64,000 bases of DNA from a virus (Duplodnaviria; Heunggongvirae; Uroviricota; Caudoviricetes): positions 1-64,000 of the IMG/VR virus record IMGVR_UViG_3300014205_008670; one strand, 5' to 3'. Shown one piece after another: positions 302 through 52,021 of the stretch. The notes under the pieces were generated by a model. That model was not told where the DNA came from. It did no database searches and saw only the letters and a program-made list of their open reading frames with translations. A program made the position numbers and the translations under genes. Each line of letters starts with the position of its first letter. Within the stretch, counting starts at the first letter, position 1.

Positions 302-760
302 ATGCCGAAAATATTAAATGTACCTAAAAGCAAACAAAAATATTCTTGGGATTGTGGTCCACATACATTTATATCTATAATTAAAGCATTAAAAAATACG
401 GTCCCTTCTGAAAACGAAATTATTAAAAATTTAAATGCAGATAAAAAGACTGGAACTGATCCGTTAAATTATATTGAAGCACTAAATAAAGAAAATATAA
501 AAAGTCATTTAATGGAGAACCCAGATATAGAAAAAATAAAGAAAGCAATTATATCAGGAAATCCTGTTGCTTTAATTGTTCAAGCCTATTCTGATTCAAA
601 GGAAGAAGTAATAAATTTAAAATCAGGACATTGGGTTGTATTGGTTGGAAGTGATAAAGATTATTTGTATTTCATAGATCCTTTAAGTAAGAGTGGAATT
701 ACAAAAATAAAAGAAAGTGATTTTCTTTATAGATGGAAAAACATAGTAAAAAAAAATCAA
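302..760 (+). other. C39-like papain-fold cysteine peptidase domain within the giant protein
   Basis: Cys in SWDCGPH (aa 18) and His in SGHWVVLVG (aa 110) at the spacing typical of C39 bacteriocin-processing peptidases. Confidence 0.6.
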
Positions 761-9700: not shown

Positions 9701-11413
9701 GGTAAGGCGTATAATACAGACCTACAAATAGATCTTCCGCCTACGTTAAACAATATTCTAAATACTTTAAAACAAAACAATTCATACGGATTGCTTGTTG
9801 GTGGTGCTGTCCGAGATAAATTTCTTGGTCTAGAACCAAAAGATTTAGATATAGAAGTTTATGGCATAAGCTATGAACAGCTTTTTAAAATCTTAAGTAA
9901 ATTTGATAGAAAAAATTCTCCAGATGTTGTTGGTAAATCATTTGGGATAATAAAAATAACAGATAACGAAGGTAATGACTATGATTTTTCAATTCCAAGA
10001 AGAGAATCAAAAACAGGAGTTGGACATCAGGGATTTTCTGTAGAGTTTGATCCTAATATTACTCCAAAGGAAGCTGCTGCAAGAAGAGACTTTACTATAA
10101 ACTCTTTGTCGTACGATCCTTTGACACATCAGGTTTTTGATTATTTTGGTGGTGTAGATGATATACAAAATAAAATTCTTAAAGCTACTTCTCCTGCATT
10201 TGCCGAAGATTCACTAAGGGCATTAAGAGGGATGCAGTTTGCCGGAAGATTTGGCTTTTCTTTAGAAGATCAAACAGCAGAAATGATAAGGGGTTTAATA
10301 AGCGATTATCCGTCTCTAGCTAAAGAACGTGTTTCTGGTGAATGGATGAAGTTTTTTACAAAGAGTAATCATCCCGGAAAAGCTTTAGAATTTTTAATTA
10401 AAAGTGGTTGGATAAAATTATATCCAGAAATAAATGCCTTTATTCCAGACAAATATGAAGAACAATTGTTAGAAGAAATAAAGTCAGATAATTATCCGGG
10501 TATTTCTGGACATAAAAGTATAAGGCAAGAGTTTGAATGGCATCCCGAAGGGTCTGTTTTACTTCACACAATTTATGTTTTAGAAGCTTCTGCAAAAATT
10601 GCTGACGAACAAAACATAAAGGGTGAAGACAGGGCTGTTATTTTAATGTCAGCATTATGTCACGATTTAGGTAAAGCTACACATACAAAAATAGAAAATA
10701 AAAAAGGAATACAAAGAGTAACTTCTCCGGGACATGAAGAGGCTAGTGTTCCTTTAGCTAAAACATTTTTAGAAAGTGTTGGAATCAAAAAAAATCTTAT
10801 TGACAGAGTTTTGCCATTAGTAGGAAATCATATGCAGCATATAACATATGATTCAAAATCTAAAAACGGAAATGTCAGACAAATTGCTGAAAGAATTTTT
10901 CCGGCTACAATAAGAGAATTAGAGTTAGTAATAAGATCAGATATGGGAGGAAGACCTCCATTACCCGGTGGGTTACCTCCAGAAGCAGAGCAAATGGTTT
11001 CTGACGCTAGAGAACATGGTGTTTATGAAGGTAAATATCAAAACCTAATTCAAGGAAGAGATTTGATTGAAGAGTTTAATCTTAAGCCCGGAATAATTAT
11101 GGGGGAAACATTAAAATTTGTTAGACAAAAAATGTTAGAGGGTTTGGTTTCCAGTCGTGAAGAAGCACTTATTGTTGCTGATGATTTTTTGAAGAGAAAA
11201 CAAAATTTTATTAACGGTAAAGATGTTTTAGAGGTAATGGAAACAGATAAAGGGGGACCGTTTGTAAAAGAAATATTAGATTTGGCATGGGAACAACAAA
11301 AAAATGGGACACTAAAGACAAGAGAAGAATCAATTAACTGGTTAATTGGATATGTTAAAGGTAATCTAGAAATAAAACCAGAAACAAACAACAACATTAT
11401 TTCAGAGGAATAA
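302..11413 (+). CDS. giant multidomain (polyvalent-type) protein, 3703 aa. N-terminal C39-like cysteine peptidase, internal ParB/Srx-like motif, Cys4 zinc ribbon, C-terminal class II CCA-adding/poly(A) polymerase head + HD phosphohydrolase domain
   Basis: Uninterrupted 11.1-kb ORF. N-terminus has KYSWDCGPHTF with a downstream SGHWVVLVGSDKDYLYFIDP His box, a papain-like C39 pattern. ITGHEGRHRMEALRR resembles the ParB/sulfiredoxin DGHHR box. CPDCG...CKDCG is a zinc ribbon. The C-terminus has LLVGGAVRDKFLGLEPKDLDIE (GGxVRD + DxD), RRDFTINSL (class II motif C), EDSLRALRGMQFAGRFGF (motif D), then HPEG...CHDLGK (HD domain). Confidence 0.85.
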   Translation: MPKILNVPKSKQKYSWDCGPHTFISIIKALKNTVPSENEIIKNLNADKKTGTDPLNYIEALNKENIKSHLMENPDIEKIKKAIISGNPVALIVQAYSDSKEEVINLKSGHWVVLVGSDKDYLYFIDPLSKSGITKIKESDFLYRWKNIVKKNQPEKRTAIVIDYKIDKIIKIKNDIDLMPMSLGTNKMNYWYKKASQEENIIEKLENDDYKSHEELISDLENSVLIWREVRLKNENIVILSTDGKKEYVAIVHDGYNDFDDIFDWFYGISDIDIYNYVDYLEENDFWEGVSEGYFLYHATDCKNIESIKEKGLIVDCKTRAITNRNMPCAVFSHPNDTSLDSYGDCVIGINVGLMKKDGYMPKTMKENGMEEAEVREILAHKLGIEDFDIYDELNKGMSQGLDPETIAFLGNIPPKYLIFPENIKANKSSSIKIATKMTQEDFIKQFNDFQKKINKVFEKYSYINPEYIKEYKEDFFKNLNRFIEHYDYTSLDLDELMKILDDISYAYKNAGWIMDSAFSKKQETKNISNLKDFRSEVYYLVMQFKKGFLENKNPEGRLDVLQEVFDLVDYSLDELSLKYKNYSEIIKKAVSIWSEAKTKIAEQIFQSPNRLFNYVRHFISKIEDLDTETSDIDFNSEINIKEHYYDGICPDCGMEIPENSKVNDSCKDCGHVFNLEYELTEEDLDRLEDSIDKEFREDLYRLGYNSLRKLEKFLNIEKTKEFEHYEGFEDFGNNIFLNNKSWYKLSQNEDHININFDPSGTGSTPNNLNIEYLGFTKYLTPNEFLSNAAPLQEVNEKTIQYFIDKYKNGEPISNPTFYAIYDEDKNVLEITGHEGRHRMEALRRVSPNEKVPVHIFPQGLRARHFVDKNVNEISFVPEKYSEKKYSGKNFIKNSANIGEQIDLFENDVELSPFTLLNGYFKILEEIKPYLDESVFVHFDQTNIDEMVQEEMESQGNDYANNYLENYDDIYGQLIHSLRDQGYFDEKENTYKSLLQEISNKIKVKSMEILSLEPFSKLVIDKINNNDFFLTKILNKEIFDDNENYFKNNEDVDILKNIYLNGDFNSICSQYVDINYLIDNFPSIFDYYSYRGLEKGPGYETLIPILNEYDDSNFSIEEEDLVDLIPYQSKIEWILEEYNDQILESIQEGTYYSLKESYSEMARKLGVGKNEKDLENFTILDLFVNAGINIIEDPENPEGSYSDSFIEELKGGVSYLYEFFKDNKDESVDFSENCLYLLKQMQEVSVSIVISGLNLDYDFYKDNVLSMFKNQLKLTYPGSFELNFAKFIMEMCHEYAEIRDEKKEEKDEILETYHLNISKKDELLSRISITKSEISSLEDLKKTGNISIVDYEKRNSELENKMEKENRRLETLEYDIKKIQEKLQVAQENIPEFLNLRNCNVAKILMNKIAVLLENKDKDSFFPKFCYITNQNVNRNVKKNWIAKNAIPFLETYLNTTPNPNGSIQILYQKMGPLAGTDRETIPQNVAAGKNYVLKWLSSRVFDSGEEIHNCIQPFFDHTIMGQQFLGKFLEDEFLGERNSNTINLVLRARKDLIEKKHLIPGEKNPPSEVLWSPSKKIENYIVPDKKRDILAYHEYSLALLYGGVGTGDTLGMFSVELLKEGYSNKAIEHFLSKINFEKGQNITPYSSNHGNFDFVITSKLDPINVVAGDKTNCCFSIGDAAESSLVDAFTNPDSGFLIVYIAGTKTLVAQSWIRLNYDSEKTPSLYLDNIETVSKYKFSTDLTKCFKLFAEKIKKDRNYKNVYVGKNLSKIIFHSPAIRPNDIPRFPGAKSGIYSDLSTGAWIIANKKTDKNWYKISGVEDFVSGIQNYDINEVIEKYPNESELNEEQKRNIRSISFSTNYGSSKSKTKLFLKYPQYTYYSLYVLEQYFLGYNPEEKEILLIWNKMDKEKDQNIPDSLPAYIYNDIAKNYTNMISTEFATNVFRNKTKYPGALIYACAKKFPDLYKCLNSNNPDTVLDSLLKKIEFPNEKNIEESIEITRNMVRPLNNIDGTVLSEEEYKKEKEIKNQNQKYFIDFFVELNKEEKKLFNILKRDSESNFTSIYSSSSYWNISLDSANLYLLLDKVLDSYKNKNNYIDKDSGFRVYNFTIKEKQLSYISFCGNLISKEILENIIKSLGSVTKKESEFSISKYDFNIYLNGEKKEVSINSEHISSPDNCFRRDRSNTNLSGFILQSFPLYEELYMDIFNKKYKNIIDETANENDFVLLKTDPLFYLLGELAGNEASYIFVNRHKVIDRETYNKISNPFSYSVTTNDFLELYKKIISKIPQNIRKSFEKQNIEHLFNFKINDPLKSNTWTYLCSGVFSPEFIQSLIEKWPEDARKVRNLIKSNSSEEVNNELKEKIDIFSDKKLKNLNKDISEFLLGQNNSKLFHVSDFPELKEFSTDFLNFFLKNNDKETYNYQESVNETKLQSALKNLEKIEIYIVDSHNLIEQFGEEQLRGYRIHPENISGFYSGPYNIFQKPNPIIVIFSDNTSSAEDICESVSEILGMRPIGSTGLNLRKEQTLWHETTHGLIDLAIGDIEKERNYYENTTTWLSDIEEVLTISYGNLDYIKNRVSEMVERTFPKDKKMIEGFIENLKKDLIKEFPLEFYGVYSEKAKIEIDEYVKEELPEILSKENMDSLKQSIVSMFSKFFLSKMLVQKFDSINSIGDDRNKLKFPSDKIVPEVNEEPYVQNKKDEFILELEKRSDYQDFINKVKERIKGITFSKNKDTMYEYKSYINNTKNNMSPIFTIYDLIRFIYDQNFYSLSDVDVNKINPYFEDIIPESLLNDITEYVIIEKEKLNIPLNIQEPEITSEEAEDLGNMIYDTRENIGKGWEWLAFNENKLYKKAKTNWYKISQHTNTLVCIDIQEEWKEYFSNIDMCDFFKFINSYDKTIYVVDSLASGIDFYSDYKAKLPKDLAFQFYNNSNEDKNNDEFDFDSLYEYGECPVSPKIDFQIKNYGGILREAIDAGMDNEVKFMLKSIINKDINEEKLDYIEETIKELDKHTGIDYWEKEFDFLEADQLAQKIYEKFSYHSSELIQGIPNDFWKSLGSIDICGGGINECLAEVTAALDILDVQYNIINKYTYGSNEKFYKNSLAKTLTNNDLSITVPNYRKESKMLTFAQMADGGKAYNTDLQIDLPPTLNNILNTLKQNNSYGLLVGGAVRDKFLGLEPKDLDIEVYGISYEQLFKILSKFDRKNSPDVVGKSFGIIKITDNEGNDYDFSIPRRESKTGVGHQGFSVEFDPNITPKEAAARRDFTINSLSYDPLTHQVFDYFGGVDDIQNKILKATSPAFAEDSLRALRGMQFAGRFGFSLEDQTAEMIRGLISDYPSLAKERVSGEWMKFFTKSNHPGKALEFLIKSGWIKLYPEINAFIPDKYEEQLLEEIKSDNYPGISGHKSIRQEFEWHPEGSVLLHTIYVLEASAKIADEQNIKGEDRAVILMSALCHDLGKATHTKIENKKGIQRVTSPGHEEASVPLAKTFLESVGIKKNLIDRVLPLVGNHMQHITYDSKSKNGNVRQIAERIFPATIRELELVIRSDMGGRPPLPGGLPPEAEQMVSDAREHGVYEGKYQNLIQGRDLIEEFNLKPGIIMGETLKFVRQKMLEGLVSSREEALIVADDFLKRKQNFINGKDVLEVMETDKGGPFVKEILDLAWEQQKNGTLKTREESINWLIGYVKGNLEIKPETNNNIISEE
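2650..2900 (+). other. ParB/Srx-like (ParB N-terminal nuclease-like) motif region within the giant protein
   Basis: LEITGHEGRHRMEALRRV resembles the ParB/sulfiredoxin GxxRxxA / DGHHR box. Weaker than the other domain calls. Confidence 0.4.
9740..10860 (+). other. class II tRNA nucleotidyltransferase (CCA-adding / poly(A) polymerase-like) head-neck plus HD domain, C-terminal part of the giant protein
   Basis: GGAVRD, DLDIE, RRDFTIN and EDxLRxLRxxRF motifs are present in canonical order. The downstream HD domain (H...HD...D) matches bacterial Cca. Confidence 0.8.
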
Positions 11414-12203: not shown

Positions 12204-12770
12204 TTATTCTATTTGAATCTTTTTCCTACTCTTTTCTTTCTTCTTTTCTTCAAAACTAAATGGAATCTTAATTTCAAGAATTCCATCCTTAGCGGTACTT
12301 TCAATTTTATCTATATCTTTAATGTTTTCAAATGAAACTGGAATTCTTCTTTCAAAGTTTGATTTCTTAACTTCTGAATAAAAAATTTCTTCGTTATTTT
12401 GACCTTCACTTGATTCTTTTTCCCCACTAACAATTAATGCTTGTTGCTCGTGATCATATTCTAAAGAAATTTTATTCTTGTCATATCCACTAATATGAAG
12501 TTTTAGTATGAGAATATCTTTTTCAAGATCTCTTAAAATTTCAAGACATGGAAATTTTGAGTTAGTTTGATATATTTCTTTTAATCTTGGTTTAAATCTA
12601 GGGCTTAATAGTTCATCTGCCAATTGATCTAAAGCATTAAGAACGTCATTTTCTCCAAACAAGGGGCTTGTAATACTTCTAAATGGAGATGTGGCTTTTA
12701 TTGAAAAAAACTCACTAGGAACTACACTACCTACACTACCTACACTACGACTACTGTTACGGTTTGTCAT
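12204..12770 (-). CDS. small heat-shock protein, Hsp20/alpha-crystallin family
   Basis: Alpha-crystallin domain pattern (LKLHISGYDKNKISLEYDHEQQALIVSGEKE ... DGILEIKIPF). Start moved to the ATG at 12770, which has a GGAGGT RBS; the track starts at a GTG at 12809. Confidence 0.7.
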   Translation of the reverse strand: MTNRNSSRSVGSVGSVVPSEFFSIKATSPFRSITSPLFGENDVLNALDQLADELLSPRFKPRLKEIYQTNSKFPCLEILRDLEKDILILKLHISGYDKNKISLEYDHEQQALIVSGEKESSEGQNNEEIFYSEVKKSNFERRIPVSFENIKDIDKIESTAKDGILEIKIPFSFEEKKKEKSRKKIQIE

Positions 12771-12862
12771 GGTCCGTACCTCCGAATTTATTTTAGGCTC
12801 TTTCGACACCTATAACATACCAAATTGGTCATGTCTCTTTTTTATACGACAAGAAATATTTT

Positions 12863-13615: not shown

Positions 13616-14971
13616 ATGGATTTTAAAAAACTAACACGCTTTGTAGTTCCTGTTATTATTTTTGCAATTGTTCTTTTCAGTTTGCTTGCTGGCTCTTATC
13701 TTGTTGAAGAAGTAAGGGCTGGTGAATATCATATTGTTCAATATCCATCCGGCAAATTAGTGGCAAAGATGGAGCCGGGTTGGTATGGTCAATGGTTCGG
13801 AACGGTTACAAAATGGCCAAAAGCATTTACCCTTAACTTTGATCGGAATCCTGATACTACCGTTGATTCTCAGGCACAAAACGATATAGATATTACTGCA
13901 ATTGAAGTTAGGTTTGCAGACGGAACTATTGCTCCAATTGAAGGTTCGTTAAGAGGAGAACTTCCACGAAGTCCGGAAATGGCAGTTGATCTTGTTTCTA
14001 AATTTGGATATAGATCAGTTCATGAACTTGTAGAAAATCTTGTAGCAAGACGAGTCCGTGTGTCTGTTAATAGTTCTGCAACAATGATGACCGCAATTGA
14101 ATCTTCTTCAAGTCGAAGAAATGATTTCATTCAACATTCTTGGGATCAAATTCAAAACGGACTATATCATACTAATACAGTATCTCAAGTTGTAGAAGGA
14201 CAAGTAAAACAAGAAGTTAAAGTGGCTAAAATTACAATAGGACCAGACGGGAATCCTATTCGTCAAAACGAAACAGGTGGATTGGATGACTTAGGTGTTG
14301 TTTTATCAAACTTTGAAATTAAGTCCTTTATTTATCCGTCAGAGTTAGAAAAACAAATTGCAAGTCAAAGAGATGCAATTATGGCTATTTCAGTGGCTAG
14401 AGCTAATGCAGAAAAGGCAAACGAAGAAGCCAAAACATCAGAAGCTCAAGGTAAAGCCAAAGTTATGACGGCTCAATATGAAGAAGAACAAATGAAAATT
14501 CGTGCTACAGTTAAAGCTGATCAAGAAAAAGCAGTTGCTTTAATTATGGCAGAAAAAGAAAAACAACAAGCCACAATTGCGGCACAAAAAAGAGTTGAAG
14601 TTGCAGAGCTTGAAAAGGAAGAGGCTGAAATTCAAGCACGTAGAGGTTTGGAAGTTGCAAAACTTAATAGGCAAGCCTCTGAAGAAGAATCCGCAAGAAT
14701 TATTTCTCTTGGTGCAGCAGAAGCTAAAGCGAAACAAGCTGTTTTTAATGCAAATGGTGCATTAACAGAAAAACTTAAAGCTTGGACTGATGCACAAGTT
14801 GCTTGGGCGCAAGCATATGGTATTCGTAGAGTCCCCGGAATTGTTCTTGGAACAAAAACTGATGACGGAACCGAAACCCTAGACCTTCAAACAGCACTAA
14901 GTGTAAAGTTATTAAATGATCTTAATCTTGATCTTGGATTAAATTCAAATACTTCTCCAACAAACAACTAA
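13616..14971 (+). CDS. membrane-anchored SPFH/band-7 (HflK/C, flotillin-like) protein
   Basis: N-terminal TM helix (VVPVIIFAIVLFSLLAGSYL), a globular domain, then a long Ala/Glu/Lys-rich coiled coil typical of SPFH proteins. Strong RBS AAAGGAGAT. Confidence 0.5.
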   Translation: MDFKKLTRFVVPVIIFAIVLFSLLAGSYLVEEVRAGEYHIVQYPSGKLVAKMEPGWYGQWFGTVTKWPKAFTLNFDRNPDTTVDSQAQNDIDITAIEVRFADGTIAPIEGSLRGELPRSPEMAVDLVSKFGYRSVHELVENLVARRVRVSVNSSATMMTAIESSSSRRNDFIQHSWDQIQNGLYHTNTVSQVVEGQVKQEVKVAKITIGPDGNPIRQNETGGLDDLGVVLSNFEIKSFIYPSELEKQIASQRDAIMAISVARANAEKANEEAKTSEAQGKAKVMTAQYEEEQMKIRATVKADQEKAVALIMAEKEKQQATIAAQKRVEVAELEKEEAEIQARRGLEVAKLNRQASEEESARIISLGAAEAKAKQAVFNANGALTEKLKAWTDAQVAWAQAYGIRRVPGIVLGTKTDDGTETLDLQTALSVKLLNDLNLDLGLNSNTSPTNN

Positions 14972-14982
14972 GAGGCTGAGAA

Positions 14983-15885
14983 ATGAAAATTTTGACTTCA
15001 AAAGACTTTGTGTTTAGCAATTTAAAAAAAGAAAATATTTCTGAAAATATTCTATCAGAAATTTCAACAAATTTCTTGGAAAAAATTGTTAGAGATATTT
15101 CGTATCCAAGACATTACACCGAAGAGTTTGAATCAAATAAAAAAGCCCGTAACTATATTGTAGAAGAATTAAAAAAGAATTCTTGGAATGTAAAACTTCA
15201 TGACTATTGTGATAATATTATTGCCACATTACCACCTTCTGAAAATCTTTCTAATTCTTCTAGAATTATTGGAGCTACACATTATGATAGTGTTCCTAAT
15301 TGCCCCGGGGCTGATGATAATGGTAGCGGAATAGCGGTTCTTTTGGCTGCTTCAAAAGTATTACCAAAAATGAATTTGAAAGTAAACCCAACTCTTATTT
15401 TCTTTAATCAAGAAGAAGATGGACTTTTGGGATCTTTTGAATTTGTAAAAAATAACAAAAAACAACTACGTGAAACAGTAAAGTCTGTGCATGTAATGGA
15501 AATGGTTGGTTATACATCTAACAAACAATTAACCCCAAAAGGATTTCCAGTAAGTATTGGAAATGTTGGTGATTTCTTGGGAATAGTTTCAAACAATAAA
15601 TCAAATATTGAATTGCTAAATCTTCTTAAGAAAAACGCAATTTATTGCCCAAACCTTCTTTCAAAGGGAATCTATCTATCAGAGGGATTTGAAAGAGTAT
15701 TTCAAGATGTAATTAGAAGTGATCATTATCCATTTTGGTTAGAAAAAATACCCGCCCTTATGTGGACAGATACTTCAAATTTTAGAAATTTTAATTATCA
15801 TAAATCAACAGACACATCAGAAACTTTAGATTATGGTTTTATGCACGAGGTTACAAAATTATTTGTTTCTTTATTTATAGAATAG
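14983..15885 (+). CDS. M28-family zinc aminopeptidase
   Basis: HYDSVPNCPGADDNGSG (His/Asp zinc ligands), NQEEDGLLGS (Glu-Glu) and a downstream DHYPF, the canonical M28 motifs in order. Confidence 0.8.
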   Translation: MKILTSKDFVFSNLKKENISENILSEISTNFLEKIVRDISYPRHYTEEFESNKKARNYIVEELKKNSWNVKLHDYCDNIIATLPPSENLSNSSRIIGATHYDSVPNCPGADDNGSGIAVLLAASKVLPKMNLKVNPTLIFFNQEEDGLLGSFEFVKNNKKQLRETVKSVHVMEMVGYTSNKQLTPKGFPVSIGNVGDFLGIVSNNKSNIELLNLLKKNAIYCPNLLSKGIYLSEGFERVFQDVIRSDHYPFWLEKIPALMWTDTSNFRNFNYHKSTDTSETLDYGFMHEVTKLFVSLFIE

Positions 15886-15895
15886 GAAAAATAAA

Positions 15896-18508
15896 ATGTC
15901 TCTTAACAAAACAGATAGTGGCGTTTTTTACTTTGGGGTTCTTCCAGAAGAAGAAGTTTTAATTCAAGCTAGTCGTCATCTAGTTGATAACCGTTGTGTT
16001 TTTATGGGGTTAATGTCAGATTGTCACTTAGGGTATTCAACCCCAATAGGTGGAGTAGCTGTTTATAAAGATGTTATTTCTCCATCTGGAGTGGGATTTG
16101 ATATTTCATGTATTGTCGAAGGATCAGAGGTTACTACAGGTTCTGGAGAACTTGTAAGGATTGAGGATATCTCCAAAGAGAATGTGGGACTTACTATGAA
16201 GTTGTCCGGATCTCTTGTTGAAACAAATATTACTGGTGTATCTTGCAAAGAAGTCGAAGAAATATTAGAGATAGAATTAGAAAATGGAGATTTTATAAGA
16301 TTAACAGAAGATCATCTTCTTTTGACGGAATATGATGGCGTGAAATCTTGGCGGGAAGCAAATAGTTTTTCTATGGGAGACAGGATTATGGTCTCTCCTT
16401 ATATTGGTTGTAAAGGGAAATTAACGAAACATCATATTTTCATGAGAATTTTGGGATATTTGATGGGAGATGGACATCTTCCAAGAGATAGCAATAGAAG
16501 CGTTTTTTATTCTTCTATTGATAAAGATGCTGATTCCATTGCAAAAGATATAGAAAAATATTATGAGTATCTTGTTCATCAACAAGATATACAAAAATCT
16601 ATATCTGTAAATCCTAATGACATTCCATCTATAGATACAGTAAATGTTGGAATTTTTCGTAGGGACAAAAAAACTATTACAGGAAAAAACACAAGAGAAA
16701 ATTGTGTTTATTTTTTTTCCAGTTATATTAGGAAAGAATTTGAACTTTACGGGTGTCCTGTTGGTAAAAAAGAGTTTGATATTTCAAGACTACATGAAAT
16801 CTTTTCAAACCTTTCGTTGGTTGATAAGTCCAATTTCATCGGAGGGATTTTGGGCGCTGAAGCGGGATGTCCAAAAATTGGTAAGAATAATGTTTTTAAC
16901 CCTTGGATAAAGATGGGAGGTATAAACGGAAGAGATTTCTTGGAATTTATCTCTTCTCTTCTTGAGGAATTCGATTTCGAATCTCATATTACTCTCTCAA
17001 CTGAAGAAGATGGAGAAAAAAAAGCAACATATGTCCTCCAAATCATTGGAGGGATGGACGAGTTTGAAAGATTTTATAGAACTTTCAAATTTTTTTATTC
17101 TGATTATAAAGAGATAGAAAAGGCAAAAGTTCTTTCTTATATTTGGAGTAAAAAGAAAATAGTTAACAAAAAAATTGCAGCCAGAGAACTGTGTCGCTTT
17201 CTCAGGTCTCAAGGTTGCAAAGTGAATTCTTTGCATAAAGAAGCTTCTAAAATGCTTGGATATGAAGTAAATAAAAGATTTGCTCTAAGGTCCATTTATG
17301 AGGATTGCGGAGATCCAAGAATTAGTGAAGAAAAACCAATTATCAATACAAATGATCAAGGAATTTGGGTCAAGATTGTATCTATTAATAAACTTAAAGA
17401 AAAGACAAAAGTTTACGATATAGGAATTGACCATGTAGGTCATAACTTTATTGCAAATGGAGTAGTTGTGCATAACTGTGGGAATAAAGCTGTAAAGTTA
17501 AACATAAAGGGTGTTACTATAAGAAAAGATATAAAAAAAATAATTGAAGAAATATCGAAAAATATTTCATTTGGAGTAGGTAGATGCAATAACAAAAAAG
17601 TAGATCATGAATTGTTTGATGATCCTACTTGGAATTTAGATTGTATTAAAGAAATATCAAGAGGTGTTAACAAAAAAAATGATTTAAGAGATATGGCAAT
17701 ATCCCAATTGGGCACTATTGGTTCCGGAAATCACTATCTAGACCTGTTTGTAGACGAAAATGATGATGTATGGATTGGAGTTCATTTCGGATCTCGTGGA
17801 CTTGGACATAAAATAGCAACATATTTTCTACATGAAGCTGGTGGAAAAGATGATATTAATGCCTATCCTACATTAATTAGTGTAAATAGCGACTTAGGAC
17901 AAGAGTATATTTCTTGTATGAAGCTGGCTGGTAGATATGCCTATGCCGGAAGAGATTGGGTTTGTAATACTGTTGCAAATATACTTCGTGGTAAAATAAT
18001 AGAAGAAGTACATAACAATCATAATTTTGCATTTGAAGAAACTCATTTTGGAGAAAGTTATTGGGTTATTAGAAAAGGTGCCACGCCTGCTTTTCCGGGT
18101 CAAAAAGGTTTTGTTGGCGGAAGCATGGGAGATAACAGCGTAATTATTGAGGGTGTAGACTCAGAAGAATCAAGACAATCATTTTATTCAACGGTACATG
18201 GCGCTGGTCGTGTTATGGGAAGAATGGAAGCTAAAGGAAAGTTTAAACAAAAAAAAGATTCTTCAGGGAAAAAAACCGGAGAATTTGAATGTGTAAGAGA
18301 ACCTAAAGTAAAAAAAGAAGATATGCTAAAATGGATTAAAGAAAAGGGAGTTGAACTTTATGGTGCAGATGTTGATGAATCTCCATTTGTTTATAAAAGA
18401 TTAAATGAAGTTCTTGGGTTTCATTCAAACACAATAAAAATCCTTCATGACTTACAACCAATTGCAGTAATGATGGCTGGTAACGAAAGAGATCCGTACA
18501 AAGATTGA
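15896..18508 (+). CDS. rtcB: RtcB RNA ligase (3'-phosphate/5'-OH) interrupted by an intein
   Basis: N-extein has SDCHLGYSTPIGGV and SPSGVGFDIS, followed by the C-extein CGNKAV. Extein total is ~414 aa, like E. coli RtcB. The 456-aa insert has LAGLIDADG blocks. Confidence 0.85.
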   Translation: MSLNKTDSGVFYFGVLPEEEVLIQASRHLVDNRCVFMGLMSDCHLGYSTPIGGVAVYKDVISPSGVGFDISCIVEGSEVTTGSGELVRIEDISKENVGLTMKLSGSLVETNITGVSCKEVEEILEIELENGDFIRLTEDHLLLTEYDGVKSWREANSFSMGDRIMVSPYIGCKGKLTKHHIFMRILGYLMGDGHLPRDSNRSVFYSSIDKDADSIAKDIEKYYEYLVHQQDIQKSISVNPNDIPSIDTVNVGIFRRDKKTITGKNTRENCVYFFSSYIRKEFELYGCPVGKKEFDISRLHEIFSNLSLVDKSNFIGGILGAEAGCPKIGKNNVFNPWIKMGGINGRDFLEFISSLLEEFDFESHITLSTEEDGEKKATYVLQIIGGMDEFERFYRTFKFFYSDYKEIEKAKVLSYIWSKKKIVNKKIAARELCRFLRSQGCKVNSLHKEASKMLGYEVNKRFALRSIYEDCGDPRISEEKPIINTNDQGIWVKIVSINKLKEKTKVYDIGIDHVGHNFIANGVVVHNCGNKAVKLNIKGVTIRKDIKKIIEEISKNISFGVGRCNNKKVDHELFDDPTWNLDCIKEISRGVNKKNDLRDMAISQLGTIGSGNHYLDLFVDENDDVWIGVHFGSRGLGHKIATYFLHEAGGKDDINAYPTLISVNSDLGQEYISCMKLAGRYAYAGRDWVCNTVANILRGKIIEEVHNNHNFAFEETHFGESYWVIRKGATPAFPGQKGFVGGSMGDNSVIIEGVDSEESRQSFYSTVHGAGRVMGRMEAKGKFKQKKDSSGKKTGEFECVREPKVKKEDMLKWIKEKGVELYGADVDESPFVYKRLNEVLGFHSNTIKILHDLQPIAVMMAGNERDPYKD
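16109..17476 (+). mobile_element. intein with LAGLIDADG homing-endonuclease domain inserted at the RtcB catalytic Cys
   Basis: Starts at Cys (CIVEGSEV), ends ...NGVVVHN with +1 Cys. DOD motifs ILGYLMGDGHL and IGGILGAEAG. The flanking exteins rejoin to the RtcB DISCG active-site motif. Confidence 0.75.
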
Positions 18509-18513
18509 AAAGT

Positions 18514-18555
18514 GGCCAAAATAGTATTGCGGTTCAAAATGGTTTGTCGTACATA
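18514..18555 (+). promoter_or_regulatory. candidate promoter (GGCCA element, -35 TTGCGG, 17 nt, -10 TACATA) driving the Y-RNA region
   Basis: GTGGCCAAAATAGTATTGCGG-17nt-TACATAT. The -10-like TCGTACAT is shared with the 49810 promoter. Confidence 0.3.
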
Positions 18556-18609
18556 TATACCATAGTTGTTGAGCAAGAAAGTCTGTTCTTTGAAATTGTA
18601 GTAAGATTT

Positions 18610-18748
18610 TTACATTAGGTCGGACTGAGTTGATTATCCGCTCAGAGGTCCAAACGCAGGTTCGAATCCTGCCCAACTAGTAGTACTGGTTGGTCGTCTA
18701 GCGGTTCAGGACGGGAAAAAACTCAACTCTAATTTTTATCTAATGTAA
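18610..18748 (+). ncRNA. YrlA-like Y RNA with a circularly permuted tRNA-like module (T-arm, acceptor stem, D-arm) closed by a long-range helix
   Basis: T-arm GCAGG-TTCGAAT-CCTGC (18656-72). Acceptor 3' strand CCAACTA (18673-79), 5-nt loop, acceptor 5' strand CTGGTTGG. D-arm GTCT-AGCGGTTCA-GGAC (18696-712). Flanking strands TTACATTAG...GAGTTGA (18610-33) and TCAACTC...CTAATGTAA (18723-48) are complementary. GGTCGGA resembles the conserved Ro-binding GGUCCGA. Confidence 0.5.
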
Positions 18749-18749
18749 T

Positions 18750-19000
18750 TTAAAAATTAATGGGTCGAATGAAAACGATTATCAAATGCCTATTCGTTCT
18801 CAACTTTTTTATCCATTATTAAATTTCAACAATCTTGCAGGGCTTCGTTCCTGTTAGGTTGTTGAGACCCTGGTCAAAGGAAGGCAATCCCGAAGATTGC
18901 CTTCCCTAAAAATCTTCTGGGTCGTAGTAATTGATTATCCCTTCGATAGAGAACCGAGGAATCTTCCTCGTTACTTTCAATTACAGTTTTATCCAGAATT
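18750..19000 (+). ncRNA. possible additional Y-RNA-like modules or structured RNA
   Basis: Two more copies of the GGTCG-N-GATTATC motif (18762-90, 18919-41). Perfect 11-bp hairpin GGAAGGCAATC-ccgaag-GATTGCCTTCC at 18878-906. CGAGGA-atct-TCCTCG hairpin. No credible ORF. Confidence 0.25.
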
Positions 19001-19324
19001 TTTTATACGGTCTTACTATAGCTTTAGTTTAAATAACTTAAAACGTCAAGACATCTTTATTAACCATTCAATACAGCGACAGATTGTAGAATTAAAAATT
19101 CTATTTGTATTGAAATTAACTTATCAGAATTTAAAATAAAAATTCAGGTCGTATTTTGTAGATTACCCTTCCAATCAGAAAGAACAAATGATGTCTTGTT
19201 CGTAAATCTGTCAAAAACAAAACAAATTAATCCATGAGATTTATTTGTTTTTCTACAAAAAACTTTTATCTGGTTTTATTTTAAATTCTGAACACTTTAT
19301 TCCTACTATATAAGGAGTCGAATT

Positions 19325-21010
19325 ATGAGTGTTAAGGCTTATAAAAATATTGGAAAAAGAAATGCTGAAAAAAAGGCAACTCAAGGAACAAAGCTTGAGG
19401 GTCAAGTAAAAAATCATGATGGAGCATATGTATATAAGGTAGATGATTGGAATAAACTTGATCGTTTCCTTTTTCTTGGTACAGAAAATGGAAGTTACTA
19501 TGCTTCAGAAAAAAAACTTACCAAAGAAAGTGTAAAGAATATTTTGAAGCTTTTGGAGCTAGATGGGAAGAAGGTTGTTGATCGTGTTGTTGAAATTTCT
19601 CTTCTTGGATCAGCCCCAAAGAATGATCAGGCTTTATTTGTTCTTGCTTTAGCCTCTGCTGATAAAAATGTAGAAACTCGTAGAGCCGCATTTAATGCTC
19701 TTTCAAAAGTTGCTAGAATTGGTACTCATCTTTTCCATTTCGTAGAATTTCGTGAACAATTTGCTGGTTGGGGAAAAGGAATGAGAAAGGCTATTTCTAG
19801 TTGGTATGGAGATAAAGACCTTAAGGACCTTTCATTTCAGCTTGGAAAATATCAATCTCGTGATGGTTGGTCAAATAGAGACTTACTAAGACTTTCTCAT
19901 GCAAATCCTAAAGAGGATGAAAATAGATCTACTATTTATAAGTGGGTAGTTAGCCCAAAAGAAGTTAATGGAGATTACCTCAAGGTGGCTTCTCCTATTC
20001 TTAGTGCTTTTGATGAAATTAAATCTACTGATGATGAAAAAAGAATTTTAGAGCTTGTTACTGAGTTTAAACTTCCTCTAGAAATGATTCCTACCGATAA
20101 ACGTAGCCGTAAGGTTTATGAAGTAATGTTGAATAATTTTGGCATTACTGCACTTATTAGAAATCTAGGAAAACTTAGTGAATGTGGAATTCTTGATTCA
20201 GGTAACTTTTCTGAAGTGAATAAGGTTGTTAATAGACTAACAAACGTTGATGAAATTAAAAAAGGTCGTGTTCATCCTATTTCTACCCTAATGGCATTGC
20301 TTGTATATAAGAATGGTAAAGGGGTTAAAGGTGATTTGACTTGGAAACCAAATCCAAAAATCATTGACGCACTTAATGAGGCTTTTTATCTTGGATTTGA
20401 CTCAATTGAATCAACTGGAAAAAACATAATGCTTGCATTGGATGTTTCTGGTTCTATGAATAGCCCTATTGGTGGAACATTTCTTACTTGTCGAGAGGCG
20501 AGTGCAGCAATGGCAATGGCTGTTGCAAAAACAGAAAAGAACTACTTGATAACAAGTTTTAGTTCTAAGGGAAATGGATATTTATCTGGCGGACATAGAT
20601 TCTATGACAAATCTATCAGCAATGATTTCTTTAACGTGTCTGGATTAACTGAATTAAATATTACAAATAAAACAAAACTACCTGAAGTAATGGATAGTGT
20701 TAATAATCTTGATTTTACTGCCACAGATTGTTCTCTTCCAATGAGATGGGCTTTAAAAAACAAAATTAAATTTGATGCCTTTGTTGTTTATACAGACAAT
20801 GAAACTAACTGTTACAACCAAATCCAACCATCAGCGGCATTAAAGAGATATCGTGAAGAAATGGGAATAGATGCAAAGTTAATTGTAAATGCAATGACAG
20901 TTACTGATTTTACAATTGCAGATCCAAATGACAAAGGAATGCTTGATTGTATCGGATTTTCAAGTGATACCCCTCAAGTTATATCTCGCTTTATTAAAAA
21001 CGAATTCTAA
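19325..21010 (+). CDS. rsr: Ro60/Rsr ortholog (TROVE domain + vWA domain with MIDAS)
   Basis: N-terminal TROVE-like region. C-terminal vWA with MLALDVSGSM (DxSGS MIDAS). RBS AAGGAG. Confidence 0.8.
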   Translation: MSVKAYKNIGKRNAEKKATQGTKLEGQVKNHDGAYVYKVDDWNKLDRFLFLGTENGSYYASEKKLTKESVKNILKLLELDGKKVVDRVVEISLLGSAPKNDQALFVLALASADKNVETRRAAFNALSKVARIGTHLFHFVEFREQFAGWGKGMRKAISSWYGDKDLKDLSFQLGKYQSRDGWSNRDLLRLSHANPKEDENRSTIYKWVVSPKEVNGDYLKVASPILSAFDEIKSTDDEKRILELVTEFKLPLEMIPTDKRSRKVYEVMLNNFGITALIRNLGKLSECGILDSGNFSEVNKVVNRLTNVDEIKKGRVHPISTLMALLVYKNGKGVKGDLTWKPNPKIIDALNEAFYLGFDSIESTGKNIMLALDVSGSMNSPIGGTFLTCREASAAMAMAVAKTEKNYLITSFSSKGNGYLSGGHRFYDKSISNDFFNVSGLTELNITNKTKLPEVMDSVNNLDFTATDCSLPMRWALKNKIKFDAFVVYTDNETNCYNQIQPSAALKRYREEMGIDAKLIVNAMTVTDFTIADPNDKGMLDCIGFSSDTPQVISRFIKNEF

Positions 21011-21028
21011 CAATTACTGTTTATATCA

Positions 21029-21064
21029 AAAGCCTCAATTTCTAGAAATAGGTTTTGAGGCTTT
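21029..21064 (+). terminator. possible terminator hairpin after rsr
   Basis: AAAGCCTCAA ... TTGAGGCTTT, a 10-bp stem with a large 16-nt loop and a weak U tract. Confidence 0.3.
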
Positions 21065-21098
21065 ATCGTATTTAATTGTGTAAAATAATTTTACATAA

Positions 21099-21136
21099 GG
21101 CCAGTTGTTGACAAACAACAAAAAGTATTGAAAATA
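21099..21136 (+). promoter_or_regulatory. candidate promoter (GGCCA element, -35 TTGACA, 17 nt, -10 AAAATA)
   Basis: AAGGCCAGTTGTTGACA-17nt-AAAATA upstream of the IF3 gene. Confidence 0.3.
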
Positions 21137-21184
21137 AAGAAGTTACACATATTCTTAGGAAAGAAATTAGGAGAAAATTTTTAA

Positions 21185-21685
21185 ATGACAACAGAGTACG
21201 TTGCTAATGATGAGATTAGTTTTCAGGAAGTTACAGTAATCAATACAAATGGAGAAAATTTAGGGATTAAAAGGTTAGAGGAAGCACTAGAAATTGCTTC
21301 AAATGAAGACTTAGATCTTGTTGTTGTAAATCCAGATCCAGAGAATCCGGTTTGTAAAATCATAGACCTTTCAAAGTTTAGATATGAAAAGCGTCAAAAA
21401 GATAAGAAAAATCCAAAAAGACATAAAACAAAAGAAATTAGAATTTCTGTAAACATAGAAGAACATGATCTTAATATTAAAACTAAAAATATTGATAGAT
21501 TTTTGTCTCAAGGTTCAAATGTTCTTGTTAATATTAAATTTCCTACCCGCCAAAGAGATACAATTTCACTAACTATTAGCGAAATATTAAATAAAATTCA
21601 AACCCTTTTAAACACAAAACACCAAATTGAACTTGGTTCTTATGGTAGTTCTAATTATTCTACGGAGATTATTCCAATTAAATGA
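21185..21685 (+). CDS. infC: translation initiation factor IF-3 homolog
   Basis: ISFQEVTVINTNGENLGIKRLEEALEIASNEDLDLVVVNPDPENPVCKIIDLSKFRYEK aligns nearly residue for residue with the E. coli IF3 N-domain/linker (...[27 protein letters not shown]). The C-domain is also alignable. Confidence 0.85.
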   Translation: MTTEYVANDEISFQEVTVINTNGENLGIKRLEEALEIASNEDLDLVVVNPDPENPVCKIIDLSKFRYEKRQKDKKNPKRHKTKEIRISVNIEEHDLNIKTKNIDRFLSQGSNVLVNIKFPTRQRDTISLTISEILNKIQTLLNTKHQIELGSYGSSNYSTEIIPIK

Positions 21686-22377
21686 TTAATGTTCAAGAGC
21701 CTCCTAGGGTCTTGAATGAATATCAACGTGATGATAAAATATTAAAAAACCTTTACTTAGTAAACATTGTTGCAAAAGAGTATCGTTTTTTAGAAAACTC
21801 AAAATATGAGGATCTTATTCAAGAAGGACGAATCGGACTCATTAAAGCAGTAGATAAATTCGATCCAATCATAGGAACCAATTTTAAAACATATGCATTA
21901 TATCACATAAAATATAACATTCAAGATTTTCTTAGAAAAGAGTCATCTTTAGTATATATTCCTTATAATCGTCTTTGCAAGGCTTTTCGTCTACAAAGAT
22001 TTATACATTCTTTTATTCAAAATAAAAATGGAACCCCTCCTTCTGAAAAAGAAATGAGGGGTTTTCTTCATTGTAACTCAACATATCTAACAGATATACT
22101 GTTGATTGTGTTGATCTTAAATAATAAAATCAACAATATTGAAGAAAAATATTCGTATAGTAGTAATATGCATGTCAATATATTTAATTTAAATATTACT
22201 TCTATGATGAAAAGTCTTTACTATGAGGAAGAGTTGGTTTTAAAAGAAAAATATTTTGAAAACAAATCATTTAGAGAAATAGGTAGTATTTTAAATTTTT
22301 CACATGAAAAAATTAGAAAAATTCACAATAATGGTCTTTTGAGACTTAAATCTCTTTTGAAAGATTTAGAGGAATAA
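21682..22377 (+). CDS. sigma-70 family RNA polymerase sigma factor (regions 2 and 4)
   Basis: Region 2 RIGLIKAVDKFDPIIGTNFKTYALYHIKYNIQDFL. C-terminal HTH FREIGSILNFSHEKIRKIHNNGLLRLK (region 4). ATGA overlap with IF3. Confidence 0.7.
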   Translation: MINVQEPPRVLNEYQRDDKILKNLYLVNIVAKEYRFLENSKYEDLIQEGRIGLIKAVDKFDPIIGTNFKTYALYHIKYNIQDFLRKESSLVYIPYNRLCKAFRLQRFIHSFIQNKNGTPPSEKEMRGFLHCNSTYLTDILLIVLILNNKINNIEEKYSYSSNMHVNIFNLNITSMMKSLYYEEELVLKEKYFENKSFREIGSILNFSHEKIRKIHNNGLLRLKSLLKDLEE

Positions 22378-33304: not shown

Positions 33305-34057
33305 TTGATAAACTTTATTGAACATACAGAACTAAATCCAAAAAAAGAAACTGACTATTGCTCTGTTCTTCCATTGAGTGTATTGAACTTATCTCATTCT
33401 AAAAAAGATAAAATAAGAACAGGTGGAGAAAATTACAACAAACAAAGTAGCAGAGATTCCTTTTCCTGTTTCCCAGAAAATGTAAACGAACTTTGTTATG
33501 ATTTTTATCTAAAAAATTCTAAAAATATTTTTGACCCTTTTGCTGGCTGGGGAGAAAGAAGTAAAAAAGCAAAAGAAAAAAATAAAAACTATTTTGGATA
33601 TGACATATCCCCACTGGCAATTGAATATGCAGAGAAAAACTTTAATGTAAAAAACAATTTAGGAAATTCTCTAACAGATGAAATTCCACTACATGACGGA
33701 TTAATTACATGTCCACCCTATTGGAATTTAGAAAAATATGAAGGTGAAGGATTGCAAAAAAATAAAACTTGGAACGATTTCCTTACCTCATATAAAAAAA
33801 TATATTCCAGATGTTTGGAAAAATCAACCGATCAGGCCACTTACTGTATTATGGTTGGAGATTGGAGATCAAAAGGAATTTATTATAACCTAAGCTTTGA
33901 AACAGAAAAAATAATGCTAGAATTAGGAATGAAAACTTTTGATAAACTAATTGTTTCAAGAGCGAATAATACAAAAATAAAAATACTTCTACCTCAAGCA
34001 AAAAAACTAGGATATTCGGTGAAAGTTCATGAATACTTATTCATTTTCAAAAAATAA
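33305..34057 (+). CDS. DNA methyltransferase (N6-adenine/N4-cytosine type)
   Basis: Motif I FDPFAGWG and motif IV TCPPY. Apparent TTG start. Paralogous to the C-terminus of the 49900..52020 protein (PPYWNLEKY vs PPYYDLEHY). Confidence 0.7.
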   Translation: MINFIEHTELNPKKETDYCSVLPLSVLNLSHSKKDKIRTGGENYNKQSSRDSFSCFPENVNELCYDFYLKNSKNIFDPFAGWGERSKKAKEKNKNYFGYDISPLAIEYAEKNFNVKNNLGNSLTDEIPLHDGLITCPPYWNLEKYEGEGLQKNKTWNDFLTSYKKIYSRCLEKSTDQATYCIMVGDWRSKGIYYNLSFETEKIMLELGMKTFDKLIVSRANNTKIKILLPQAKKLGYSVKVHEYLFIFKK

Positions 34058-49809: not shown

Positions 49810-49850
49810 GGCCAACTTAAGTTGAACACTAGCCATAGTTCGTCGTACAT
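49810..49850 (+). promoter_or_regulatory. candidate promoter (TTTTGGCCA element, palindrome CAACTTAAGTTG, -35 TTGAAC, -10 TACAT)
   Basis: TTTTTGGCCAACTTAAGTTGAAC-17nt-GTACATTAT. Shares CCATAGTT and CGTCGTACAT strings with the 18514 promoter region. Confidence 0.3.
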
Positions 49851-49899
49851 TATTATTAGTTTTGTTTTACGGACATCATGTAGTTTAAAGGATTCAAAA

Positions 49900-52020: not shown

Positions 52021-52021
52021 A

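What the first reader, a model, noticed from the sequence alone, without database searches (positions are those of the whole stretch)
21185..21685. IF-3 homolog in a phage
Positions 21-80 align almost residue for residue with the E. coli IF3 N-domain/linker (LDLVVVNPDPENPVCKIIDLSKFRYEK vs [27 protein letters not shown]). The C-domain is alignable but more divergent. A phage IF3 could bias start-codon/initiator tRNA discrimination or ribosome recycling toward phage mRNAs. The phage itself uses GTG/TTG starts on some genes.
Basis: partly seen in the sequence, partly recalled or inferred. Interest (0 to 1): 0.6.

Follow-up and report, generated by a model that had tools for sequence, protein, structure and literature searches.

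The report
Phage-encoded translation initiation factor IF3

Summary
The ORF at 21185-21685 (+, 166 aa) is a real two-domain IF3 homolog. IF3_N scores 88 bits, IF3_C 51 bits and TIGR00168 infC 136 bits, all above the curated cut-offs. The window is a phage: portal, protease, capsid and virion genes are present, and the capsid is 54% identical to Bacillus phage G. Phage IF3 is already annotated and discussed for Rak2/121Q-like jumbo phages and huge phages (PHROG 9787), but its function remains untested. New points: this IF3 belongs to a small clade (window, P0128, P0129). The clade's C-domain is remodelled yet conserved, with FP[TKS]RQ replacing FRGRE and GSY..N.Y replacing EGR.M. The gene is always followed by, and translationally coupled to, a sigma-70-family factor. 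It starts at ATG, whereas 12 of 12 cellular relatives start at an autoregulatory ATH codon. It scores closer to cellular IF3s than to other phage IF3s. The claim that the phage uses GTG/TTG starts is not supported. Most likely it is an autoregulation-free supply of IF3 activity co-expressed with the phage sigma factor.

The parts
21029..21064 (+). Strong hairpin followed by a U-rich tail just after the Ro60 stop. It is a probable intrinsic terminator separating Ro60 from the IF3-sigma unit.
   Evidence: RNA fold of 21011-21100: -23.1 kcal/mol, z = -4.87, 0 of 200 shuffles fold as well. The simple terminator scan missed it because the loop is longer than 8 nt.
21108..21135 (+). Sigma-70-like promoter match (TTGACA, 16 nt spacer, GAAAAT) upstream of IF3. 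Weak evidence only.
   Evidence: 10 of 12 matches, but the region yields 24 such sites against 19.3 expected by chance, and the site is not visibly conserved in L002.
21169..21173 (+). Shine-Dalgarno AGGAG, 11 nt upstream of the IF3 ATG.
   Evidence: Sequence; anti-SD duplex -7.3 kcal/mol. The same TAGGAGAAAA element precedes the ATG in L002.
21185..21685 (+). IF3 homolog coding sequence, 166 aa plus stop, with a canonical ATG start.
21206..21409 (+). IF3 N-terminal domain (aa 8-75, including the start of the Lys/Arg-rich linker helix at aa 62-75).
   Evidence: Pfam IF3_N 88.1 bits. Model shows beta-beta-alpha-beta-beta plus helix 62-75. Foldseek hit to 1tif, TM 0.75, rmsd 2.0 A.
21425..21682 (+). 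IF3 C-terminal (30S-binding) domain, aa 81-166. It is complete but remodelled: KFPTRQ in place of RFRGRE, and GSYGSSNYSTEII in place of LEGRxMxMxxAP.
   Evidence: Pfam IF3_C 51.1 bits, profile positions 2-69 of 86. Model shows beta-alpha-beta-alpha-beta-beta at 82-164. 1tig TM 0.83, rmsd 1.6 A over 84 columns. Motifs are conserved in P0128 and P0129.
21682..21685 (+). ATGA overlap of the IF3 stop codon with the sigma-factor start codon (translational coupling).
   Evidence: Sequence. The same overlap occurs in L002, L003 and L004; L005 has a 3-nt spacer.
21682..22377 (+). Sigma-70-family RNA polymerase sigma factor, 231 aa. It is the conserved downstream partner of IF3.
   Evidence: Pfam Sigma70_r2 50.1 bits and Sigma70_r4 29.2 bits; PHROG 351; PDB SigA/RpoD/RpoS matches; 50-61% identical orthologs directly after IF3 in L002-L005.

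Best explanation
The ORF encodes a functional, phage-owned translation initiation factor IF3. Shown: it has both IF3 domains and the basic linker, a complete C-domain fold, normal C-domain positive charge, and the universally conserved K110 and R133 equivalents. It has been kept under constraint in a small phage clade. It starts at a plain AUG behind a good Shine-Dalgarno, not at the AUU/AUA/AUC codon that lets cellular IF3 repress its own synthesis. It is translationally coupled to a phage sigma factor. Inferred: the protein binds the host 30S platform as cellular IF3 does. There it would supply IF3 activity (keeping subunits apart, freeing 30S after recycling, speeding and proofreading start-site selection) independently of host infC expression and feedback. 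It is made together with the sigma factor that redirects host RNA polymerase. The cassette would thus secure both transcription initiation and translation initiation for a phage whose genes use canonical SD+AUG starts. The remodelled C-domain may tune binding or release kinetics on the host ribosome, but this is not shown.
For: Family membership. Complete fold. Phage context: portal, protease, capsid and virion proteins, capsid 54% identical to phage G. The same strand and composition as neighbours: gene GC 0.285 and GC3 0.162, against ORF means of 0.316 and 0.178. Constraint: P0128 (52%) and P0129 (40%) are full-length relatives, and identity in the C-domain (47/36/55%) is as high as in the N-domain (59/38/43%). 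Clade motifs are shared. Synteny over six genes with L002, and a sigma factor directly downstream in all four related contigs. Start codons: ATG in all three clade genes, whereas 12 of 12 cellular relatives have SD plus ATA/ATC/ATT. K110 and R133 are retained, and C-domain net charge is +3/+4 against 5.5 +/- 3.5 in 103 diverse IF3s. Phage genes use SD+ATG. That an AUU-class start codon mediates infC autoregulation is established knowledge, not tested here.
Against: There is no functional data for any phage IF3; quotes a 2025 paper saying so. The IF3_C score is less than half that of a cellular IF3 (51 against 121 bits), and the last 17 profile positions do not align. R131 is Pro, G132 is lost and R168 is Ser/Asn; from memory, these residues were implicated in 30S binding by E. 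coli mutagenesis. The model's confidence over the last 40 residues is only moderate (pLDDT 59-67). Expression timing is unknown, and the promoter match is at chance level. The clade has only three distinct sequences.
Confidence: 0.6

Rival explanations
1. Altered-specificity IF3. The phage factor replaces host IF3 on the 30S and changes start-codon or initiator-tRNA proofreading, or mRNA class preference, so that phage messages are favoured.
For: Clade-specific substitutions at positions that contact the initiator-tRNA elbow in E. coli: R25 to T, Q33 to N, R66 to K. In E. coli, R25A/Q33A/R66A raises AUU initiation about 5-fold (PMC9723500). T at position 25 occurs in 0 of 103 diverse IF3s and P at 131 in 3 of 103. 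The C-domain is remodelled but conserved.
Against: Phage genes in the window use ordinary SD+ATG starts, and the TTG starts were artefacts of ORF listing. R25 is not invariant in a broad sample (65% R), and several low-GC cellular IF3s have Q, M or V there. K at position 66 is the majority state, 82%. No phage-specific start-site feature was found.
Confidence: 0.2
2. Accessory of an RNA-damage repair or ribosome-rescue module. IF3 would work with the neighbouring RtcB ligase, Ro60 and candidate Y RNA, and the CCA-adding domain, to return ribosomes to service after host nuclease defences cut tRNA or rRNA.
For: In the window, IF3 lies directly after RtcB (with intein), a candidate Y RNA and Ro60, and 10 kb after a giant protein with CCA-adding and HD domains. 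Iyer et al. 2021 place phage IF3 under ribosome rescue or support of phage translation.
Against: The adjacency is not conserved. L002 has 937 nt of ORF-free DNA upstream and no Ro60 match, and L005 has unrelated small ORFs upstream. A strong hairpin separates Ro60 from IF3. The conserved partner is the sigma factor.
Confidence: 0.1
3. Inhibitor or decoy. A diverged IF3 that occupies the 30S platform non-productively to shut off host translation, or that soaks up a host or competitor factor which targets IF3.
For: Loss of R131, G132 and R168 equivalents and a low IF3_C score. The window protein's N-domain is unusually acidic, -11 against -3.0 +/- 2.5.
Against: An inhibitor of initiation would also block the phage's own SD+AUG genes. 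The acidic N-domain is not shared by P0128 or P0129. Both domains and the linker are kept, which a simple blocker would not need.
Confidence: 0.07
4. Not a phage gene: the host's own infC on a chimeric or prophage-flanking contig, or a decaying pseudogene.
For: Some 'phage' GenBank records with IF3 hits are short unannotated contigs that may be bacterial.
Against: The gene is flanked on both sides by phage genes on the same strand. It has no rpmI-rplT-type small genes downstream but a sigma factor, an ATG rather than ATH start, and phage-like composition. Synteny is conserved in an independent 21-kb contig at about 50% identity. The reading frame is intact and conserved in three lineages.
Confidence: 0.03

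Closest known systems
Bacterial translation initiation factor IF3 (infC; TIGR00168; Pfam IF3_N + IF3_C)
   Same: Two-domain architecture with a basic linker. 37-52% identity to cellular IF3s. The N-domain motif PVCKI(I/M)D, the Y75 equivalent, K110 and R133 are conserved. The C-domain has the same beta-alpha-beta-alpha-beta-beta fold.
   Different: Encoded by a phage. ATG start instead of the autoregulatory ATH start. Followed by a sigma factor, not rpmI-rplT. The C-domain motifs RFRGRE and LEGRxM are replaced, and IF3_C scores 51 bits against about 120.
IF3 of Rak2/121Q-like jumbo phages (Asteriusvirus 121Q gp47, CBB_318, PBECO4, Sharanji) and of huge phages from metagenomes (PHROG 9787)
   Same: Phage-borne two-domain IF3 with a canonical start codon. 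It matches PHROG 9787 at 118 bits. Function is untested in all of them.
   Different: Only 32-33% identity (76-79 bits), lower than to cellular IF3s (112-113 bits), so this is a separate lineage. Those phages place IF3 next to ClpS/DnaJ or a ClpX-like gene, not a sigma factor. They keep R25 and G132, while this clade has T25, P131 and no G132.
Mitochondrial IF3 (mIF3)
   Same: Weak sequence match (Pfam mIF3 20.5 bits, below cut-off) and fold match.
   Different: No N- or C-terminal extensions. Clearly nearer to bacterial IF3.

Membership tests
IF3 protein family (infC, TIGR00168) | IF3 N-terminal domain | tested here: met
   Pfam IF3_N 88.1 bits against 26.9. Foldseek hit to 1tif, TM 0.75.
IF3 protein family (infC, TIGR00168) | IF3 C-terminal domain, complete beta-alpha-beta-alpha-beta-beta fold | tested here: met
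   Pfam IF3_C 51.1 bits against 34.8, though only profile positions 2-69 of 86 align. The model has all six elements at 82-164. 1tig aligns over 84 columns at rmsd 1.6 A. pLDDT of the tail is only 59-67.
IF3 protein family (infC, TIGR00168) | Whole-protein equivalog score | tested here: met
   TIGR00168 135.7 bits against cut-off 60.
IF3 protein family (infC, TIGR00168) | Lys/Arg-rich flexible linker between the domains | tested here: met
   SKFRYEKRQKDKKNPKRHKTKE, with a helix at 62-75. It is 4-5 residues shorter than in P0128 and P0129.
IF3 protein family (infC, TIGR00168) | Basic C-domain residues used for 30S/16S rRNA binding (E. coli R99, K110, R112, R116, R129, R131, R133, R147, R168; list recalled from the mutagenesis literature) | tested here: inconclusive
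   K110, R133 and R116 are retained, and R112 and R129 are K. R131 is P, R168 is S/N, and G132 is lost. S at R99 is the commonest state in the diverse IF3 sample. Net charge is in the normal range.
IF3 protein family (infC, TIGR00168) | Binding to the 30S subunit, anti-association and start-codon proofreading activity | not testable with these tools
   Needs biochemistry or genetics.
Cellular infC gene organisation | Non-canonical AUU-class start codon (autoregulation) and the infC-rpmI-rplT operon | tested here: not met
   ATG start, with an in-frame TAA just upstream. The downstream gene is a sigma factor. 12 of 12 cellular relatives have an ATH start. This is a property of the cellular gene, not of the protein family.
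Phage IF3 (PHROG 9787) | Profile match and location in a phage genome | tested here: met
   118 bits, E 7.7e-34. Phage structural genes lie on the same strand.

The most novel reading that the evidence does not exclude
The IF3-sigma pair is a conserved two-gene 'initiation takeover' cassette of a phage-G-like lineage. In this reading, the remodelled C-domain (Pro at R131, loss of G132, new GSY..N.Y hairpin) and the T25/N33 N-domain give an IF3 with altered ribosome-binding kinetics or fidelity. Made in fixed ratio with the phage sigma factor, it would reprogram translation initiation at the same moment transcription initiation is reprogrammed. It might act on ribosomes altered or repaired during infection by the neighbouring RtcB/Ro60/Y-RNA functions.
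Probability: 0.15. Interest if true: 0.6.

Novelty: new member of a known kind. Interest (0 to 1): 0.3.

Why it matters
Phage-encoded IF3 has been catalogued for years, yet no one has shown what it does. This clade adds three handles for experiments. The first is loss of the autoregulatory start codon. The second is a conserved translational coupling to a sigma factor. The third is a C-domain that changed at the 30S-binding loop but stayed under constraint. If the protein proves to have altered fidelity or kinetics, it would be a natural tool for dissecting IF3 function and an example of a virus rewiring translation initiation. If it simply supplies IF3, it is one more auxiliary translation gene of giant phages.

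Tried and rejected
- **Close DNA relatives:** megablast of 24 kb of the window against 50,697 phage records found nothing.
- **Single-protein scans of IMG/VR:** scans with the window IF3 and with P0128 found no relatives. The alignment-based scan found one unrelated viral IF3, L033.
- **Metagenome scan:** it returned 22 loci, but only one (L011, the same contig as L003) belongs to the clade. The rest are ordinary cellular IF3s without the motifs or a sigma neighbour.
- **Phage G:** I tested whether it carries the same cassette. Its gp2 peptidase and gp3 sigma factor abut with no IF3 between them. Only portal, protease and capsid are detectably homologous to the window in the 87.5 kb examined, and phage G is not among the 40 best IF3 places. 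A distant IF3 elsewhere in phage G was not excluded.
- **Donor or host assignment from source names:** this failed. Only one neighbour is named, Carboxydothermus.
- **Promoter evidence:** it is at chance level.
- **RNA genes:** no tRNAs or Rfam gathering-level RNAs were found in the window or related loci.
- **'Lost arginines' argument:** rejected for R99 and Y107, because S and L there are the majority states in diverse IF3s.
- **R25 to T as a strong fidelity argument:** rejected, because R25 is only 65% conserved in the broad set.
- **Reduced C-domain charge:** rejected.

Full report
**Observation**

An in-frame TAA lies immediately upstream, and AGGAG sits 11 nt before the start.

It passes every curated IF3 threshold:
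- Pfam IF3_N: 88.1 bits (cut-off 26.9), aa 8-75.
- Pfam IF3_C: 51.1 bits (cut-off 34.8), aa 81-149.
- NCBIfam TIGR00168 infC: 135.7 bits (cut-off 60).
- PHROG 9787 'translation initiation factor': 118 bits.

Against solved structures, the best sequence matches are bacterial IF3 chains: 5me0_Y at 106 bits, 5lmn_X at 91 bits, and E. coli 8jsg_A at 82 bits. The quoted 27-residue stretch aligns without gaps to E. coli IF3. It matches at 15 of the 27 quoted positions, so 'almost residue for residue' is generous. The match is still far beyond chance.

**Is the C-domain complete?**

The Pfam alignment stops at profile position 69 of 86, so I tested this further.
- A MAFFT alignment with nine homologs shows the protein is collinear with IF3 to its last residue.
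- An AlphaFold2 model (50-sequence alignment, mean pLDDT 77) gives an N-domain, a linker helix at 62-75, and a C-domain with strands and helices in the order beta 82-88, alpha 93-108, beta 112-118, alpha 124-141, beta 146-148, beta 157-164.
- Foldseek superposes this C-domain on the solved IF3 C-domain 1tig over 84 columns of 88 residues at rmsd 1.6 A (TM 0.83). It superposes the N-domain on 1tif (TM 0.75).

The C-domain is therefore complete but diverged. Confidence over the last 40 or so residues is moderate (pLDDT 59-67).

**Is it a phage?**

Yes. The evidence:
- Downstream on the same strand are a portal protein (36675-40157), a prohead-protease domain (in 40949-46579), the major head protein (48757-49623) and a virion structural protein (57949-59172).
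- The head protein is 54% identical to gp27 of Bacillus phage G (497 kb).
- Only portal, protease and capsid are recognisably shared with the phage G regions examined, so this is a distant relative.
- The window has about 30% GC, almost all genes lie on one strand, and there are several giant ORFs.
- The IF3 gene's GC (0.285) and GC3 (0.162) match the other ORFs (0.316 +/- 0.050; 0.178 +/- 0.038).
- The source contig is a 99-kb metagenome assembly, ENA ERZ27247358.

**Relatives**

An exhaustive HMMER search of 1.84 billion representatives found 8,828 IF3s. Only two are close full-length relatives: P0128 (52% identity, E 1.9e-41) and P0129 (40%). Everything else scores about 100 bits or less.

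P0128 lies on a 21-kb contig (L002) that is syntenic with the window over six genes: IF3, a 231-aa sigma factor, then genes of about 1,400, 165, 315 and 1,900 aa, at 33-63% identity. P0128 also occurs on two short contigs, and P0129 on a 1.3-kb contig. In all of them a sigma-factor ortholog (50-61% identity) follows IF3 directly. The overlap is ATGA in the window, L002, L003 and L004, and there is a 3-nt spacer in L005.

Metagenome and IMG/VR scans with the clade alignment found no further members. They returned only ordinary cellular IF3s and one unrelated viral IF3.

**What is special in this clade**

I compared the clade with 110 diverse IF3 representatives, using E. coli numbering.
- The three clade proteins share T at R25, N at Q33, P at R131, loss of G132 (T/K/S), S/N at R168 and Y at M170. 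This gives the motifs [IK][KR]FP[TKS]RQ[RK][DE]TI and GSY..N.Y..EI.P.
- T at position 25 occurs in 0 of 103 diverse IF3s, and P at 131 in 3 of 103.
- Several apparent 'losses' are ordinary variation. S at R99 (55%), L at Y107 (46%) and K at R66 (82%) are majority states. R25 itself is only 65% conserved, with Q, M or V in some low-GC cellular IF3s.
- K110 and R133, nearly universal, are retained. C-domain net charge (+3/+4) is within the normal range of 5.5 +/- 3.5.
- Within the clade the C-domain is as conserved as the N-domain (47/36/55% against 59/38/43%). Yet it scores only 45-56 bits on IF3_C, against 121 bits for a cellular IF3. That pattern indicates a shifted but constrained domain, not decay.

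**Expression signals**
- The Ro60 gene upstream ends in a strong hairpin with a U-rich tail (21029-21064; z = -4.87). IF3-sigma is therefore probably a separate transcription unit.
- A TTGACA-16-GAAAAT match lies at 21108-21135, but such matches are at chance frequency in this AT-rich DNA.
- All three clade genes start at ATG. In 12 of 12 cellular relatives from the metagenome scan, the N-terminus is an ATA, ATC or ATT codon placed 5-8 nt after a GGAGG-type Shine-Dalgarno. This is the classical non-canonical start through which IF3 represses its own translation (established knowledge).
- The other known phage IF3 genes checked also use ATG (121Q, LR756511) or GTG (Phosso). Phage IF3 genes thus appear to have lost the feedback device.

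It does not hold. Each ORF that the mechanical list began at TTG (12825, 27049, 27800, 49822, 59151) has a nearby in-frame ATG with a much better anti-SD duplex. These ATGs match the database gene calls at 27055 and 28007. Only 33305 remains ambiguous. The phage uses canonical SD+ATG starts.

**Mechanism**

The best-supported reading is a working IF3 that binds host 30S subunits. It would supply anti-association, recycling and start-site selection activity independently of host infC expression and autoregulation. It is produced in step with the phage sigma factor.
- Shown: family membership, complete fold, constraint, phage residence, ATG start, and coupling to sigma.
- Inferred: ribosome binding, the benefit to the phage, and early or middle timing.

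The rival readings are altered specificity, an RNA-repair accessory, an inhibitor or decoy, and contamination. They are weighed in the rival-explanations section. The repair reading is weakened because the RtcB/Ro60 neighbourhood is not conserved in L002 or L005.

**Comparison with what is known**

Phage IF3 is already known.
- tblastn finds it in 98 phage records, many annotated as IF-3: the 121Q/PBECO4/Rak2 group, Phosso, and a 595-kb uncultured phage.
- It is discussed for phage CBB and relatives in 2017 (PMC5259590), for huge phages in 2020 (PMC7162821) and for jumbo phages in 2021 (PMC7824862).
- A 2025 paper states that its function in phages 'cannot be definitively stated' (PMC11895373).

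This clade is a separate lineage. It scores 112-113 bits to cellular IF3s but only 76-79 bits to 121Q, Phosso and LR756511. The IF3 genes in 121Q and Phosso sit next to ClpS/DnaJ or ClpX-like genes rather than a sigma factor.

**Verdict**

This is a real and correctly identified phage IF3. It is a new member of a known kind, with some distinctive and testable features, and of modest interest.

Noticed in passing
window 18509-19324 (best candidate 18626-18733, + strand): The ORF-free gap between RtcB and Ro60 has locally raised GC (up to 0.46). It contains a tRNA T-arm-like GCAGGTTCGAATCCTGC, a recurring GGTCG...GATTATCC motif and stable hairpins (18835-18985, z = -3.2). Rfam YrlA (Y RNA-like) gives a full-length but weak hit (18.1 bits against gathering 69, E 0.61). 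This is a candidate phage Y RNA, possibly several, arranged as in the bacterial rsr-yrlA-rtcB module.
   Followed up: partly
window 19325-21010 (+): A Ro60/Rsr ortholog (TROVE plus Ro60 vWA domains; NCBIfam Rsr 501 bits, below the equivalog cut-off of 900; PHROG 850) lies directly upstream of IF3. Phage Ro60 homologs are known, for example from a Thermus phage (PMC12135203, listed).
   Followed up: partly
window 15896-18508 (+): An 870-aa RtcB RNA ligase is interrupted by an intein with a LAGLIDADG-type homing endonuclease. Precomputed Pfam hits are RtcB, Intein_splicing, LAGLIDADG_3, then RtcB again.
   Followed up: no
window 302-11413 (+): A 3,703-aa ORF carries PolyA_pol/CCA-adding nucleotidyltransferase and HD domains (precomputed Pfam). 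A tRNA-repair enzyme embedded in a giant protein is unusual. Other giant ORFs (1,371, 1,831 and 1,876 aa) have few or no family hits.
   Followed up: no
L002 1-937: In the related contig, the 937 nt upstream of IF3 has no convincing ORF and 35-56% GC, in a phage with low-GC coding regions. There is a weak RAGATH-18 match (26 bits, E 0.018) at 439-509, no tRNA, and no similarity to the window. It may be structured RNA.
   Followed up: partly
window 33305-34057 and 49822-53716 (+): Two ORFs share DNA-methyltransferase-like PHROG hits (12517, 498). The second also carries LAGLIDADG and HNH homing-endonuclease domains and is followed by another large homing endonuclease (51986-53716). This region, right after the capsid gene, is rich in selfish elements, and its GC drops to about 0.26.
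   Followed up: no
window 36675-40157 and 40949-46579 (+): The portal domain occupies only aa 512-914 of a 1,160-aa protein. The prohead-protease domain occupies only aa 90-250 of a 1,876-aa protein. Both are far larger than their phage G counterparts, which suggests fused extra domains.
   Followed up: no
loci L012-L030 (cellular IF3 genes from the metagenome scan): All 12 cellular infC genes inspected appear to start at ATA, ATC or ATT after a strong Shine-Dalgarno, not only at the textbook ATT. ATC and ATA together are commoner than ATT in this sample.
   Followed up: partly
window 21185-21409 (IF3 N-domain): The window protein's N-domain is unusually acidic (net -11, against -3.0 +/- 2.5 in 103 diverse IF3s). 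Its two clade relatives are not (-4 and -1).
   Followed up: no
window 12204-12809 (-) and 13616-15885 (+): HSP20 small heat-shock protein, Band_7/SPFH and M28 peptidase genes lie upstream of the RNA-repair genes. Phage G also has a zinc peptidase next to its sigma factor, but no sequence similarity was detected.
   Followed up: no
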